Assembly (NCBI GenBank): GCA_965371515.1
Contig: CBDUYR010000006.1
Location: 4,475 to 68,474, forward strand
From: an uncultured bacterium
Lineage (GTDB): Bacteria > Krumholzibacteriota > Krumholzibacteriia > Krumholzibacteriales > Krumholzibacteriaceae
DNA length: 64,000 nucleotides
Direction of reading: 5' to 3'
A model generated the notes under the pieces. That model worked only from the letters and a program-made list of their open reading frames with translations, searched no databases and was not told where the DNA came from. The translations under genes were made by a program, and so were the position numbers. Positions within the stretch are counted from its first letter, which is position 1. Each line of letters starts with the position of its first letter. Shown here one piece after another: positions 657 to 3,983 of the stretch.

Positions 657-2573
657 GTGACCGAATTCCGACAACTTGGCGAGATGACGCTCGAGGACTA
701 CCAGGCGATTGGGATGAAGAGCGGCCTCGAGATACACCAGCAGCTCGACACCGAGAAGAAGCTTTTCTGCCGCTGCCCCATCCTTCCCTACAGCGATAAA
801 GTCGACGCGCAGATCCTCCGGCACATGCGGCCCACACTCTCCGAGCTGGGCGAGTACGACGGCACCGCCCTGATGGAGTTCAAGACAAAGAAAAACATCA
901 CCTACCAGATAAACAAGAAAACGGTCTGCACGTACGAGATGGACGACACGCCGCCTTTCGAGCTCAACCAGCAGGCGCTCGAGATCGCGCTCGAGATCAC
1001 GATGCTGCTCAACTGCAAGCTCGTCAGCGAGATTCACATCGCCCGCAAGCAGTACCTCGACGGATCGATCCCGACCGGATTCCAGCGCACGACTATACTC
1101 GGCGTCGACGGCTGGATACCGTACGGCGACAGGAAGATCGGCATCATCCAGCTCGGACTCGAGGAAGACGCCTGCCGAGAGGTCAGCGATATCGGCCACG
1201 AACGGATTTACATGACCGACCGCCTCGGCATCCCCCTTATAGAGACAGTCACATATCCCGAGATGCGCACCCCGCAGGAGGTCGCCGACGTCGCCCAGGT
1301 CATCAGGTACCTCACCCGCTCGACGGGCAAGGTCCGCACCGGCATCGGGCGGACGAGACAGGACGTAAACGTGTCCGTCACTGGCGGACGAAGGGTCGAG
1401 ATCAAGGGCGTTCCGCGCATCCCGATGATCCCGCTGCTCGTCCATAACGAGGCGTTCAGGCAGCTCGCGCTTCTCGACATAAAGAAGACCCTCAACGACC
1501 GGGGTGTCACAGAAGAGACATTCGAGTATGACTCGGTAGAGATCACCGACATCTTCAAGGGAACACAGTACTACCCCGTCGCCAAGGCGCTGAAAGACAG
1601 CCTCGAGGTCCATGCGGTCGTACTGCGCGGCTTTCGCGGCATCCTGTCGACGAAGATACAACCGGAGACGACATTCTCGAAGGAGATTTCGGACCGCGTG
1701 CGCGTCGTCGCCTGCCTCGACAGACTGCCCAACATCGCTCACTCGGACAGCGAGGGCGAGACATTCTCGAGCGCCGAGTGGACGAAGATAAAAAAGCATG
1801 CGAAAATGGGCAACGACGACGTTATCGTGATCGTCTGGGGCGGCGAGGACGACGTCAGGATGGGTGTCAGTGAGATCGCGCTGCGCGCGAAGGAAGCGGC
1901 GATCGGCGTCCCCGACGAGACGCGCCAGGCGCTGGCCGACGGGACGAACGGATTCGAAAGGATTCTGCCCGGCCCGAACAGGATGTATCCCGATACCGAT
2001 CTGCCGCCGATCGCGATCACCGACGAGCGCATAGAGCGTATCAGATCGACCCTGGCAGAGCTCTCATGGGACAGACAGAAACGGTACGAGGGTATGGGGC
2101 TCGACAAGGAAACGGCGCGCAGAATGAGCATCTCGAAGCGCAGGGATGCCTTCGACGAGGCAGTATCGAAAACAAAGTACGAGCCGGCCACAGTGGCAGA
2201 ACTGCTGCTCGGCGGACTGCGGAGACTGCGACGACGAGACGGCGTGCAGGAATGCAGCGACGAGGTATTCGTCCAGACTCTGGTCGAGGCCGGTGAAAAG
2301 AAGCTGCCGAAAACAAGCCTGGAGGTGCTTCTCGCGAAGACGTGCGGCCCCGACGGAATAGATCCGTCTAAGACAGCAACCGCGTTCGAGATCCTCGACG
2401 CGAAGGCGCTGGAGAAAAAGATGAAAAAGTTCGCGGGCTCCCTCGAGCTCCCCGACATAGAACGAGATAAACTGGTAAGGTACCTGACCGGCCGGATGGC
2501 CACCGAGTTCAGGGGATATATCACGGGCCGTGAGGCATTCGATTTCGCGGGCCGTTTCGTCGCGTCTGAATAA
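657..2573 (+). CDS. gatE: Glu-tRNA(Gln) amidotransferase subunit E (archaeal-type GatE)
   Basis: GLEIHQQLDT..KLFCRCP, DGS..TGFQRT, LGLEEDA, DRLGIPLIE, GIGRTRQDVNVS, VEIKGV, LPGPNRMYPDTDLPPI; 638 aa with a central insertion; directly upstream of gatD. Confidence 0.92.
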   Translation: MTEFRQLGEMTLEDYQAIGMKSGLEIHQQLDTEKKLFCRCPILPYSDKVDAQILRHMRPTLSELGEYDGTALMEFKTKKNITYQINKKTVCTYEMDDTPPFELNQQALEIALEITMLLNCKLVSEIHIARKQYLDGSIPTGFQRTTILGVDGWIPYGDRKIGIIQLGLEEDACREVSDIGHERIYMTDRLGIPLIETVTYPEMRTPQEVADVAQVIRYLTRSTGKVRTGIGRTRQDVNVSVTGGRRVEIKGVPRIPMIPLLVHNEAFRQLALLDIKKTLNDRGVTEETFEYDSVEITDIFKGTQYYPVAKALKDSLEVHAVVLRGFRGILSTKIQPETTFSKEISDRVRVVACLDRLPNIAHSDSEGETFSSAEWTKIKKHAKMGNDDVIVIVWGGEDDVRMGVSEIALRAKEAAIGVPDETRQALADGTNGFERILPGPNRMYPDTDLPPIAITDERIERIRSTLAELSWDRQKRYEGMGLDKETARRMSISKRRDAFDEAVSKTKYEPATVAELLLGGLRRLRRRDGVQECSDEVFVQTLVEAGEKKLPKTSLEVLLAKTCGPDGIDPSKTATAFEILDAKALEKKMKKFAGSLELPDIERDKLVRYLTGRMATEFRGYITGREAFDFAGRFVASE

Positions 2574-2588
2574 ACGGCGCGAAGGAAG

Positions 2589-3983
2589 GTGATCGCACTG
2601 GGCAGCGATATCTACAAGGGATACAGTGGCGAAGCGCTGGAATGCCTGAAGAAGTTCGAGGCCGGTGTCTGGTTCGACGTAGAGGTCAACTCGACACGCG
2701 GCAATTTCAGGGGGATCATACTCCCCAGATCCGAGACCGCCGACAACAATCACATAGTGCTCAAGCTCGACACCGGCTACAACGTCGGCCTGGCAGTCGG
2801 CACGATCGAGACGATGACAACGCACGGCAAGCGTGAGGCACATTACAAGATCCCCGAGAAGGAATTCCCTTTCGACCCGAAGAAACCGACGGTCAAGCTC
2901 CTCGGCACAGGTGGCACGATCGCCTCGAGGCTCGACTACCGCACCGGCGCCGTTATCCCGGCGTTCACCCCGGGAGAGCTCTACGGCTCCGTTCCAGAAC
3001 TAGCCGACATCTGCAATCTGGAGACGGAGAAGATGTACGGCGTATTCAGCGAGAACATGGGCCCCGAACAGTGGATAGGAACAGCCGAGAAGATCGGCGA
3101 GGAGATCAAGAAGGGTGTCAGCGGAGTCGTGATAGGCCACGGCACCGACACGATGCACCACACCGCGGCGATACTCTCGTTCATGGTGCAGGACTCGCCG
3201 GTACCGATCGTCATGGTCGGTTCCCAGCGCTCCAGCGACCGCCCGTCGAGCGATGCGGCCTTGAATCTGATACATGCGACGCGCACCGCCGCCTACAGCG
3301 ACTTCGCCGAGGTGATGGTCTGCATGTTCGGCCCGACGAGCGACCAGTACGCCCTGCTCCACAGGGGAACACGCGTACGCAAGATGCACTCGTCGTACAG
3401 GTCTACATTCAGGACGATCGGCGACATCCCCCTGGCGATGGTCGACCGCAAGAAATTCACGCCGCTGCGCGACGACATCAAGAAGCGCCGCAGCGACAGG
3501 AACGTGACGATCAACACGGCATTCGACGACCGCATCTCGATCGTGTACTACTACCCCGCCATGAAACCGGACATCATCGATTCGCTGATCGACAACGGGT
3601 ACAAGGGAATCGTTATCGCAGGTACTGGACTGGGGCATGTCAACAAGCCCCTCTACCCATCGCTCAAAAGAGCGTTCGACGAGGGGATCCATGTATACAT
3701 GGCCGTTCAGACGCTCTGGGGGTACGTGCAGATGTACGTATACGACACGGGGCGCGACATGATGGATCTCGGTGTCATACCCGGCGCCAACATGCTGCCC
3801 GAGGTAGCGTACATGAAGCTCGGATGGGCGCTCGGCCAGAGCCAGGATCGCGAAGAAGTGAAGAAGATCATGCTGACCCCGATCGCAGGCGAAATCACCG
3901 AGAGGGAGCCACATAATGGCTACCTGATCTACCAGGGCGGCATTCCCGAGGTCGAAGAGTTCATCAGCCAGTACAAAAAATAG
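2589..3983 (+). CDS. gatD: Glu-tRNA(Gln) amidotransferase subunit D (asparaginase-like GatD)
   Basis: N-terminal KLDTGYNVG domain, GTGGTIASRLDYRTGAV, HGTDTM, GSQRSSDRPSSDA, RGTRVRKMHSS, MLPEVAYMKLGW. Confidence 0.93.
   Translation: MIALGSDIYKGYSGEALECLKKFEAGVWFDVEVNSTRGNFRGIILPRSETADNNHIVLKLDTGYNVGLAVGTIETMTTHGKREAHYKIPEKEFPFDPKKPTVKLLGTGGTIASRLDYRTGAVIPAFTPGELYGSVPELADICNLETEKMYGVFSENMGPEQWIGTAEKIGEEIKKGVSGVVIGHGTDTMHHTAAILSFMVQDSPVPIVMVGSQRSSDRPSSDAALNLIHATRTAAYSDFAEVMVCMFGPTSDQYALLHRGTRVRKMHSSYRSTFRTIGDIPLAMVDRKKFTPLRDDIKKRRSDRNVTINTAFDDRISIVYYYPAMKPDIIDSLIDNGYKGIVIAGTGLGHVNKPLYPSLKRAFDEGIHVYMAVQTLWGYVQMYVYDTGRDMMDLGVIPGANMLPEVAYMKLGWALGQSQDREEVKKIMLTPIAGEITEREPHNGYLIYQGGIPEVEEFISQYKK

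What the first reader, a model, noticed from the sequence alone, without database searches (positions are those of the whole stretch)
657..3983. Archaeal-type GatDE amidotransferase in a diderm bacterium, clustered with glnA
Seen: intact gatE and gatD with the GatD catalytic motifs (TGGT, HGTDT, RKMH), host-like GC and short spacers (22 and 15 nt) in a glnA-gatE-gatD run. Known: GatDE is classically the archaea-specific route to Gln-tRNA(Gln), whereas bacteria use GatCAB or GlnRS. The rest of the window is clearly bacterial (OM barrels, TonB-ExbBD, PTS IIA). Inference: an old, ameliorated archaea-to-bacteria transfer that may replace GatCAB for tRNA(Gln), with glnA supplying the amide donor.
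Basis: partly seen in the sequence, partly recalled or inferred. Interest (0 to 1): 0.85.

Follow-up and report, generated by a model that had tools for sequence, protein, structure and literature searches.

The report
Bacterial branch of archaeal GatDE amidotransferase
A marine-sediment bacterium carries intact genes for GatDE, an enzyme textbooks call archaea-only; it belongs to a large, overlooked bacterial branch of that enzyme, and here it sits beside, not instead of, the usual bacterial routes to glutamine-charged tRNA.

Summary
gatE (657-2573) and gatD (2589-3983) are intact, pass NCBI's GatE and GatD equivalog cut-offs, keep the catalytic motifs, and follow glnA with 22- and 15-nt spacers at host-like GC. 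The genome is a diderm bacterium (BamA present). Its genus includes a MAG titled Candidatus Krumholzibacteria.

This is not a private transfer. GatE passes the cut-off in 139 of 201 genomes of the same phylum. The 80 best GatE loci among GTDB species genomes are 78 bacterial loci with many phylum labels, including three cultured Bacteroidota. In GatB-rooted trees these sequences, with a subset of Thermoplasmatota, form one 'type-2' clade (SH-aLRT 100). That clade is sister to Heimdall/Thor-type Asgard GatE, so an old archaea-to-bacteria origin is favoured.

GatDE does not replace GatCAB. This genome also has gatCAB, GlnRS, AsnRS and two GluRS. In no genome at least 90% complete was GatDE found without GlnRS or GatCAB. 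The genome's tRNAGln genes have the bacterial U1-A72 pair, not the archaeal A1-U72 pair.

The most likely function is a Glu-tRNAGln amidotransferase adapted to bacterial tRNAGln and working in parallel with the other routes. A distinct or conditional role stays open.

The parts
1..634 (+). 3' part of glnA (type I glutamine synthetase). The frame continues upstream of the window to contig position C6:3681.
   Evidence: Pfam Gln-synt_C 232 bits; TIGR00653 256 bits on the partial protein. The full 476-codon open frame is seen in L143. glnA lies directly upstream of gatE in 8 of 12 own-phylum loci and in L031, L054 and L066.
641..650 (+). Shine-Dalgarno-like GGGAAGGGAG ahead of the gatE GTG at 657
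   Evidence: Read from the DNA.
657..2573 (+). gatE, type-2 (bacterial-clade) GatE: cradle (kinase/transamidase) domain, AspRS-like insertion domain and a helical YqeY-like tail. The real start may be the ATG at 684.
   Evidence: NF003107 536.3 bits (cut-off 456) and TIGR00134 464.7 bits (cut-off 319.55). phmmer against PDB: 1zq1_C 4.6e-106 and 2d6f_C 1.2e-95, with GatB at best 1.8e-27. AF2 model pLDDT 90.3. Foldseek: 1zq1_C E 5.8e-52, TM 0.83. hhalign against canonical archaeal GatE: probability 100 over 630 columns. Trees.
2581..2588 (+). Shine-Dalgarno-like GAAGGAAG that abuts the gatD GTG, so the exact start is uncertain
   Evidence: Read from the DNA.
2589..3983 (+). gatD, type-2 GatD: GatD_N domain plus an asparaginase-type glutaminase with TGGT, HGTDT and RKMH
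   Evidence: NF003217 519 bits (cut-off 310) and TIGR02153 516.8 bits (cut-off 324); Pfam GatD_N, Asparaginase and Asparaginase_C. PDB: 1zq1_A 2.9e-118 and 2d6f_A 1.7e-115, with plain asparaginases at best 1.9e-37. GatD tree.
3997..5592 (+). MOP/Wzx-type polysaccharide flippase gene 13 nt after gatD. It is possibly co-transcribed but is not part of the amidotransferase.
   Evidence: Pfam Polysacc_synt 107 bits. It lies downstream of gatD only in L031 among 92 loci. No + strand terminator-like site lies in the intergenic spacers; the only + strand site before 6929 (4719-4732, a 5-pair stem) lies inside the flippase ORF.

Best explanation
The locus encodes a complete, selectively maintained GatDE of a distinct lineage, called 'type 2' here. 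Type 2 is found in many bacterial phyla and in some Thermoplasmatota. It is sister to Heimdall/Thor-type Asgard GatE and lies outside the canonical clade that holds Methanococcales, Hadesarchaea, TACK, Odin-type and canonical Thermoplasmatota GatE. By homology, GatD hydrolyses glutamine (or asparagine) to ammonia. GatE then phosphorylates the gamma-carboxyl of glutamate esterified to tRNAGln and amidates it, giving Gln-tRNAGln. In this Krumholzibacteria-like genome the substrate tRNAs have the bacterial U1-A72 pair, so first-base-pair recognition must differ from the archaeal enzyme. The enzyme works beside GlnRS and GatCAB, not in place of them. In this lineage it lies 22 nt downstream of glnA, which makes the likely amide donor; co-transcription is inferred from the spacing. 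Shown here: gene integrity, family membership, domain architecture, retention of catalytic residues, phyletic distribution, tree position, the co-existing pathways and the tRNA first pair. Inferred: the activity, the substrate, co-transcription with glnA and the physiological reason for keeping it.
For: Both proteins pass the equivalog HMM cut-offs. Every column that is invariant in an alignment of 36 bacterial and archaeal GatE is by construction kept in the window protein, including G23, E25, H27, R130, K131, E169, E170, R234, D236, N238, S240, E248, K250 and R442-D448. The fold and profile match GatE over the full length, tail included. The GatD catalytic motifs align with P. abyssi GatD. 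GatE passes the cut-off in 139 of 201 genomes of the phylum. A GatD homologue lies in the held flank of 65 of 80 loci from other species genomes, nearly always directly downstream. GatD is 63-91% identical across phyla, which points to strong purifying selection. The GatD and GatE trees agree. The type-2 clade has SH-aLRT 100 in three trees. Contigs bridge all junctions at even depth.
Against: There is no biochemical or expression evidence. The genome already has GlnRS (745 bits), gatCAB and AsnRS, so no need for GatDE is apparent. Of 152 phylum genomes with GatE, 146 also have GlnRS or GatB, and the other 6 are under 90% complete. Ten of 10 GatDE genomes checked outside that sample have GlnRS (8) or GatB (2). 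One of the ten, G252, is the same assembly as G134 of the phylum sample. A fully competent sole route would be expected to stand alone somewhere. Of the 57 genomes with GatE and GlnRS but no GatB, 49 have a single GluRS, and whether it makes Glu-tRNAGln is unknown. The tRNAGln genes have U1-A72, whereas archaeal GatDE is reported to read A1-U72 (PMC9499178, passages read).
Confidence: 0.6

Rival explanations
1. Type-2 GatDE has a role distinct from bulk Gln-tRNAGln supply. It might be a conditional back-up when free glutamine is scarce (nitrogen limitation, co-regulated with glnA). It might clear toxic Glu-tRNAGln made by an imperfectly discriminating GluRS. It might serve one isoacceptor only, or act on a different acyl-tRNA substrate.
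For: In the genomes examined, type-2 GatDE stands without GlnRS or GatB only in assemblies that are under 90% complete or of unreported completeness. Three Thermoplasmatota genomes keep a canonical adjacent gatD-gatE pair and also an unlinked type-2 GatD and GatE. G201 has type 2 plus GlnRS. Type-2 GatD evolves much more slowly than canonical GatD (branch lengths). Pfam's GatB_Yqey and GAD models are listed for the archaeal GatE but for very few bacterial-clade GatE. The two tRNAGln genes differ at the discriminator base, A73 versus G73.
Against: All catalytic and tRNA-binding domains are retained. Where GlnRS is missing, GatCAB may be kept for asparagine synthesis while GatDE serves tRNAGln, as in archaea, so 'never alone' is not decisive. 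The genomes of one phylum are not independent. No alternative substrate is indicated. No neighbour other than gatD is conserved across 80 loci.
Confidence: 0.3
2. One reading: GatDE replaces GatCAB or GlnRS as the route to Gln-tRNAGln in this organism.
For: None specific to this genome. In principle it could apply to relatives that lack GlnRS.
Against: This genome has gatC, gatA and gatB (56.5, 553.9 and 542.4 bits, all above cut-off, adjacent on C33) and GlnRS (745.4 bits) at 99.6% completeness and 0.03% contamination.
Confidence: 0.03
3. A relic on its way to loss, with the genes intact but without function.
For: Apparent redundancy with GlnRS and GatCAB.
Against: The genes are intact in most genomes of the phylum (139 of 201 above cut-off, only one with an in-frame stop listed). 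GatD is 63-91% identical across phyla. The gatE-gatD order is conserved.
Confidence: 0.04
4. An assembly or binning artefact: an archaeal fragment joined to, or binned with, bacterial DNA.
For: None found.
Against: Host-like GC. Logan contigs cover 110-884, 857-3333 and 3308-6000 at even depth in three runs; these may be the source sample, so they are not independent. The same arrangement lies on a 2.3-Mb contig of a same-genus MAG (L031) and in single-contig genomes (G064). The closest relatives are all bacterial.
Confidence: 0.01

Closest known systems
Canonical archaeal GatDE (Methanothermobacter thermautotrophicus, PDB 2D6F; Pyrococcus abyssi, PDB 1ZQ1)
   Same: The same two subunits, domain architecture and catalytic residues. 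These are the best PDB matches for both proteins, and the profile match covers the full length.
   Different: About 31-40% identity for GatE and 35-45% for GatD to canonical Thermoplasmatota copies, and a separate clade. The gene order is gatE then gatD; in the canonical Thermoplasmatota loci seen it is gatD then gatE. The host tRNAGln has U1-A72, not A1-U72. The host has GlnRS. The tail and insertion domains have diverged so far that Pfam's GatB_Yqey and GAD models do not report them in the window protein.
Bacterial GatCAB
   Same: GatE and GatB share the cradle domain and the YqeY-like tail, the reaction is the same, and both would have to accept U1-A72 tRNAGln. This genome has both enzymes.
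   Different: The ammonia-generating subunit is different: GatD is asparaginase-type, GatA is an amidase. There is no GatC. GatB models score at most 148 bits against cut-offs of 315 or more. GatE has the AspRS-like insertion. Per PMC2811023 (passages read), GatE has a short loop where bacterial GatB has the 3-10 turn that reads U1-A72.
Heimdall/Thor-type Asgard GatE
   Same: Sister group of the type-2 clade in GatB-rooted trees (support 97 with one representative; 94 with nine rows).
   Different: Archaeal hosts. Pfam detects the tail and GAD domains in these proteins. They are about 39-41% identical to the window GatE (P0162).
Organisms with redundant amide aa-tRNA routes, such as Deinococcus radiodurans and Thermus thermophilus (GlnRS + AsnRS + GatCAB used for asparagine synthesis). 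Recalled, not read here.
   Same: A tRNA-dependent amidotransferase kept beside direct synthetases. This genome lacks an AsnB match, so its GatCAB may serve asparagine synthesis.
   Different: Here a second amidotransferase, GatDE, is kept as well. Asparagine synthesis does not explain it, because relatives with GatDE but no GatB do have AsnB (g25 8 of 8, f6 67 of 87).

Membership tests
GatE (Glu-tRNAGln amidotransferase subunit E) | Scores above the curated equivalog cut-offs and better than GatB models | tested here: met
   NF003107 536.3 bits (cut-off 456) and TIGR00134 464.7 bits (cut-off 319.55). The best GatB model gives 148.3 bits, below its cut-off of 338.
GatE (Glu-tRNAGln amidotransferase subunit E) | Cradle domain with the invariant catalytic and Mg-binding residues shared by GatB and GatE | tested here: met
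   49 invariant columns in 36 bacterial and archaeal GatE all hold the window residue. They match, one for one, most of the invariants of a 38-sequence archaeal-only alignment.
GatE (Glu-tRNAGln amidotransferase subunit E) | AspRS-like insertion domain, which GatB lacks | tested here: met
   Residues about 285-415 align to 1zq1_C. The model matches GatE chains at TM 0.77-0.83 and gives weak AspRS hits with probability up to 0.98. hhalign covers the region. Pfam's GAD model itself is not reported for the window protein.
GatE (Glu-tRNAGln amidotransferase subunit E) | C-terminal helical YqeY-like tail domain that binds the tRNA D-loop | tested here: met
   hhalign aligns through column 648 of 654, including the M...RG...G motif. 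The model has helices over residues 456-637 at pLDDT about 82-94. Pfam GatB_Yqey is not reported.
GatE (Glu-tRNAGln amidotransferase subunit E) | Substrate tRNAGln with the archaeal A1-U72 pair | tested here: not met
   Both tRNAGln genes of the genome (UUG on C4, CUG on C28) begin with U and pair with A72. The requirement is taken from PMC9499178 and PMC2811023 (passages read).
GatE (Glu-tRNAGln amidotransferase subunit E) | Amidates Glu-tRNAGln, and not Asp-tRNAAsn, in vitro | not testable with these tools
   Needs biochemistry.
GatD (Glu-tRNAGln amidotransferase subunit D) | Equivalog score, the GatD-specific N-terminal domain and two asparaginase domains | tested here: met
   NF003217 519 bits (cut-off 310), TIGR02153 516.8 bits (cut-off 324), Pfam GatD_N 47 bits (cut-off 25.7). 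PDB GatD chains match at 1e-115 to 1e-118, plain asparaginases at best 1.9e-37.
GatD (Glu-tRNAGln amidotransferase subunit D) | Asparaginase-type catalytic motifs (Thr in TGGT, HGTDT, Lys in RKMH) | tested here: met
   Present in the translation and aligned to the identical motifs of P. abyssi GatD. The residue roles are recalled.
GatD (Glu-tRNAGln amidotransferase subunit D) | Forms a complex with GatE | not tested
   Only adjacency and congruent trees were examined. No complex prediction was run, because a textbook pair would pass by likeness to solved structures.
GatB of GatCAB (considered) | Scores above the GatB equivalog cut-off | tested here: not met
   At most 148.3 bits against cut-offs of 314.8-680. 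The genome's true GatB is on C33 (542.4 bits).
Stand-alone type I asparaginase AnsA (considered) | Asparaginase without GatD_N and without a GatE partner | tested here: not met
   The TIGR00519 subfamily model does match (388 bits). However, the GatD equivalogs score higher, GatD_N is present and gatE is adjacent.

The most novel reading that the evidence does not exclude
Type-2 GatDE is an ancient, separate lineage of tRNA-dependent amidotransferase. It entered Bacteria from an Asgard-related archaeal stock, spread as a two-gene cassette across the FCB group and beyond, and re-adapted to U1-A72 tRNAGln. It is kept for a job that neither GlnRS nor GatCAB does. One candidate is keeping Gln-tRNAGln charged, or clearing Glu-tRNAGln, when free glutamine collapses under nitrogen limitation. 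Its persistence beside canonical GatDE in some Thermoplasmatota would then reflect the same second function.
Probability: 0.3. Interest if true: 0.85.

Novelty: new variant of a known kind. Interest (0 to 1): 0.72.

Why it matters
Reviews up to 2022 state that GatDE occurs only in archaea, and they use this to argue how tRNAGln, GlnRS and the amidotransferases co-evolved (PMC2811023 abstract; PMC9499178 passages). This study finds a large bacterial clade that includes cultured Marinifilum, Labilibaculum and Perlabentimonas and co-exists with GlnRS. That removes the domain-signature status of GatDE. It gives a natural experiment on how an amidotransferase changes its reading of the first tRNA base pair. 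It also poses a clear and testable puzzle: why a cell that has GlnRS keeps a strongly conserved GatDE. The cultured carriers make the question experimentally tractable.

Tried and rejected
Asparagine-synthesis hypothesis (GatDE as an Asp-tRNAAsn amidotransferase where GatCAB is missing): not supported. AsnRS is in 183 of 201 phylum genomes, and in 124 of 125 good ones. AsnB-type synthetase is in g25 8 of 8 and f6 67 of 87.

A dedicated second GluRS as partner of GatDE: not supported. Two GluRS copies go with GatB (71 of 123 against 9 of 78) rather than with GatE (64 of 152 against 16 of 49). These genomes are related, so the comparison is descriptive only.

Conserved neighbours: clustering 516 ORFs from 80 loci found no recurrent neighbour other than gatE and gatD.

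GluRS discriminating versus non-discriminating marker: not done. only ranked PDB GluRS chains, and the T. thermophilus alignment needed to map the recalled Arg358 marker was not shown.

The tRNAGln of the Thermoplasmatota carriers was not examined. No complex prediction was run. The window holds no tRNA and no Rfam match.

Expression: no RNA holder was listed.

Literature. 'GatDE' is held by 49 papers, of which 30 were listed, and none reports bacterial GatDE in its title or abstract; the phrase 'bacterial GatDE' has 0 occurrences in the 30 listed. A whole-word search for GatE, GatD, amidotransferase and Bacteroidetes gave 13 papers, none relevant. Searches combining GatDE with bacterial phylum names and Krumholzibacteriota with GatD found nothing pertinent among the papers listed. 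Subscription journals, including Sheppard and Soll 2008, and supplementary files were not seen.

MAG labels such as 'uncultured Rickettsiales', 'Eubacteriales', 'Hyphomicrobiales' and 'Thermotogae' are the submitters' and may be wrong.

Rows chosen for the trees:
- One search used 51 of the 92 locus-derived GatE, 15 of the 22 named archaeal hits, 16 of the 150 representatives, the window protein and the genome's own GatB.
- One search dropped 23 of those rows and added 16 Thermoplasmatota rows.
- One search dropped 21 further rows, including the long-branched L130, and added 10 named archaeal rows.
- One search used 26 bacterial loci with a complete GatD of 430-520 aa, the window protein and 16 Thermoplasmatota rows.

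All trees are quick searches with SH-aLRT support only.

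
Full report
OBSERVATION. The window is G000:C6:4475-68474 of a 3.08-Mb, 171-contig genome rated 99.6% complete and 0.03% contaminated. ORF listing gives four genes on the + strand: glnA (3' part, 2..634), gatE (657..2573, 638 aa), gatD (2589..3983, 464 aa) and a MOP-type flippase (3997..5592). The spacers are 22, 15 and 13 nt, the first two with purine-rich Shine-Dalgarno-like stretches.

GatE scores 536.3 bits against NF003107 (cut-off 456) and 464.7 against TIGR00134 (cut-off 319.55). 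GatD scores 519 bits against NF003217 (cut-off 310) and 516.8 against TIGR02153 (cut-off 324). GatB models stay far below their cut-offs, and Pfam finds GatD_N plus both asparaginase domains. TGGT, HGTDT and RKMH are present and align with P. abyssi GatD. GC over bases 1-4000 is 0.586-0.609, against 0.574 for the genome. No + strand terminator-like site lies in the intergenic spacers; the only + strand site before 6929 is a weak 5-pair stem at 4719-4732 inside the flippase ORF.

HOST AND INTEGRITY. The genome encodes BamA (502.9 bits). The neighbouring genes are ordinary bacterial ones: an S8 peptidase, DsbD, a GT1 glycosyltransferase and a UbiA-family protein. The closest GatE locus in named records, at 84% identity, lies on a 2.3-Mb contig of a MAG titled Candidatus Krumholzibacteria (L031). 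That genome has the same coordinates and score for GlnRS as G134, which is listed as 'same genus'. The window's organism is therefore a Krumholzibacteria-like member of the FCB group.

The DNA occurs in marine-sediment metagenomes. In three runs of one study, probably the source and so not independent, Logan contigs cover 110-884, 857-3333 and 3308-6000 at even depth and bridge all three gene junctions. The glnA-gatE-gatD order recurs in related genomes. A chimera is excluded for practical purposes.

THE REST OF THE PATHWAY IN THIS GENOME. All above cut-off: gatC-gatA-gatB adjacent on C33 (56.5, 553.9 and 542.4 bits), GlnRS on C36 (745.4 bits), AsnRS on C1 (457.3 bits) and two GluRS (C22 at 517.3 bits; C28 at 469.8 plus 59.1 bits). 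GatDE therefore replaces nothing here. ARAGORN finds 37 tRNA genes, including tRNAGln(UUG) on C4 and tRNAGln(CUG) on C28. Both have U1-A72, with discriminator A73 and G73 respectively. Archaeal GatDE is described as reading the D-loop and A1-U72 (PMC9499178 and PMC2811023, passages read). No AsnB-type match (E up to 1e-70) was found in this genome, so its GatCAB may serve tRNA-dependent asparagine synthesis. That last point is inference.

DISTRIBUTION. In 201 genomes of the same phylum, the window's genome included:
- GatE passes its cut-off in 139, and 13 more hold fragments.
- GatB is found in 123 at E up to 1e-60.
- GlnRS is found in 136 at E up to 1e-100.
- AsnRS is found in 183.

| GatE | GatB | GlnRS | genomes |
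|---|---|---|---|
| + | + | + | 64 |
| + | + | - | 25 |
| + | - | + | 57 |
| + | - | - | 6 (59-89% complete) |
| - | + | + | 8 |
| - | + | - | 26 |
| - | - | + | 7 |
| - | - | - | 8 |

No genome at least 90% complete has GatDE as its only route. Two GluRS copies track GatB (71 of 123 against 9 of 78), not GatE.

Outside the phylum sample, 10 GatDE-bearing genomes were checked (one of them, G252, is the same assembly as G134 of that sample). Eight have GlnRS: Marinifilum flexuosum, Perlabentimonas gracilis, Labilibaculum sp. K2S, a complete Bacteroidales MAG, the Krumholzibacteria MAG, and Ignavibacteria, Zixibacteria and Cloacimonas MAGs. Two lack GlnRS and have GatB: a complete Phycisphaerales chromosome and one unclassified bacterium.

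The scan of GTDB species genomes matched at least 598 relatives. The best 80 are 78 bacterial loci with many phylum labels and two Thermoplasmatota loci. A GatD homologue lies in the held flank of 65 of the 80, nearly always directly downstream. The exceptions are L065, L082 and L090, and there are larger gaps in L038, L098 and L099. GatD is 63-91% identical to the window protein, GatE 44-84%. glnA lies upstream only in 8 of 12 own-phylum loci and in L031, L054 and L066. No other neighbour is conserved.

PHYLOGENY.
- A first GatE tree (84 rows, LG+G4) put the window, 51 bacterial loci and the two Thermoplasmatota loci in one clade (SH-aLRT 100), apart from 15 named archaeal GatE.
- Sampling 41 Thermoplasmatota genomes showed canonical GatE (about 520-720 bits) in most. 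A lower-scoring form is the only copy in G201, G234 and G215 and a second copy in G212, G223 and G243. G202, reached separately through locus L108, also has only the lower-scoring form.
- In G212, G223 and G243 the canonical gatD-gatE pair is adjacent. The second GatE, 48-50% identical to the window's, stands alone, and an unlinked second GatD is 62-69% identical to the window's.
- The second GatE sits next to an archaeal-type glmU (TIGR03992, above cut-off) and glmS in two MAGs, which supports archaeal contigs.
- With a site-heterogeneous model (LG+C20+F+G4 PMSF) and the genome's own GatB as outgroup, the type-2 clade again has support 100. Canonical Thermoplasmatota copies fall in the canonical archaeal clade.
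- The lone sister row, P0162, proved to be Heimdallarchaeota/Asgard-type. With nine such rows added, type 2 (30 rows, support 100) is sister to the Heimdall/Thor clade (support 100), joined at 94.
- The GatD tree is congruent: type 2 has 33 rows (100), of which 27 are bacterial (100), and type-2 branches are much shorter than canonical ones.
- Inside the bacterial part the phylum labels are mixed. Bacteroidota alone needs at least 4 changes, which points to transfer of the cassette among bacteria.

These are quick searches with a single long outgroup, so the order of the deep branches is provisional.

STRUCTURE AND DOMAINS. An AlphaFold2 model of the window GatE, built on 40 bacterial-clade sequences, has pLDDT 90.3 and pTM 0.84. 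Foldseek ranks P. abyssi and M. thermautotrophicus GatE first (E 5.8e-52 and 1.2e-48; TM 0.83 and 0.77), then GatB chains (about 1e-25), then weak AspRS hits that fit the insertion domain. Profile-profile comparison of bacterial-clade against canonical archaeal GatE gives probability 100 over 630 columns at 35% identity, tail domain included. Pfam lists GatB_Yqey and GAD for the archaeal proteins but almost never for the bacterial clade. These two tRNA-facing domains are therefore retained but diverged.

INTERPRETATION. What is shown: a bona fide, intact, strongly conserved GatDE of a separate lineage, vertically kept in this phylum, shared with many bacteria and some Thermoplasmatota, and nested among archaeal lineages. 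What is inferred: it amidates Glu-tRNAGln that carries the bacterial U1-A72 pair, using glutamine made by the upstream GlnA. The unexplained point is why it is kept beside GlnRS and often a single GluRS, and why the genomes examined show it alone only in assemblies that are under 90% complete or of unreported completeness. Two readings remain. One is a parallel or archaeal-style division of labour, with GatDE serving Gln and GatCAB serving Asn. The other is a second, conditional role. I give them 0.6 and 0.3. Replacement of GatCAB, a relic and an artefact are each unlikely.

KNOWN OR NEW. NCBI's and JGI's pipelines already name these proteins GatE in bacterial MAGs, so the genes are visible in the databases. 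In the literature I could search, GatDE is still called exclusively archaeal (PMC2811023 abstract, 2009; PMC9499178 passages, 2022), and no paper found or 88 describes a bacterial clade. Subscription papers and supplements were not seen. I file the finding as a new variant of a known kind.

Noticed in passing
L143 (G000:C6) 3681-5108, continuing into window 1-634; also L031 2553-3980: The glnA frame is open for 476 codons, but the first ATG, GTG or TTG lies about 210 codons in (C6:4317). The same N-terminal sequence without a common start codon is seen in the same-genus MAG. This suggests a rare start codon.
   Followed up: partly
window 5500-7000: GC drops to 0.40-0.41 against about 0.59 around it. 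The stretch holds a methyltransferase-domain ORF (5636-6361, - strand) and ends at a strong terminator-like hairpin at 6929-6956 (+). It may be a recently acquired insert just after the flippase gene.
   Followed up: no
G201:C110:345-1913, G243:C19:26726-28297, G223:C27:23460-25025: Three MAGs titled or grouped as Thermoplasmatota carry a GlnRS above the equivalog cut-off (723-728 bits), although archaea are said to lack GlnRS. These are the same genomes that carry type-2 GatDE. Mis-binning of those contigs was not excluded.
   Followed up: partly
G000:C28:6091-7855 (L144 2312-3883 and downstream): One of the two GluRS genes (523 aa) has an anticodon-binding domain that aligns poorly with solved GluRS structures. 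It lies directly upstream of tRNAGln(CUG) and tRNAGlu(CUC) on the same strand.
   Followed up: partly
G000:C4:32078-32151 and G000:C28:6177-6250: The two tRNAGln isoacceptors differ at the discriminator base: A73 in UUG and G73 in CUG. They might therefore be handled by different charging routes.
   Followed up: no
whole genome G000: No AsnB-type asparagine synthetase match at E up to 1e-70, although AsnRS and gatCAB are present. GatCAB may be kept for tRNA-dependent asparagine synthesis. AsnA was not searched.
   Followed up: partly
G000:C12:40847-40944: A tRNA-Sec(TCA) gene is present. ARAGORN found no tRNA for Asn, His, Cys or Ile in the assembly, probably because of assembly gaps.
   Followed up: no
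protein P0489 in the tree: A GatE named 'Thermoplasmata archaeon' sits at the base of the type-2 clade. It is recorded on a 5.16-Mb contig, which is unusually large for that group, so the label or the bin may be wrong.
   Followed up: no
G215:C89 (L130): One Thermoplasmatota genome has an adjacent GatD and GatE pair in which GatD (52% identical to the window's) branches at the base of type-2 GatD. Its GatE is a very long branch outside both main clades.
   Followed up: partly
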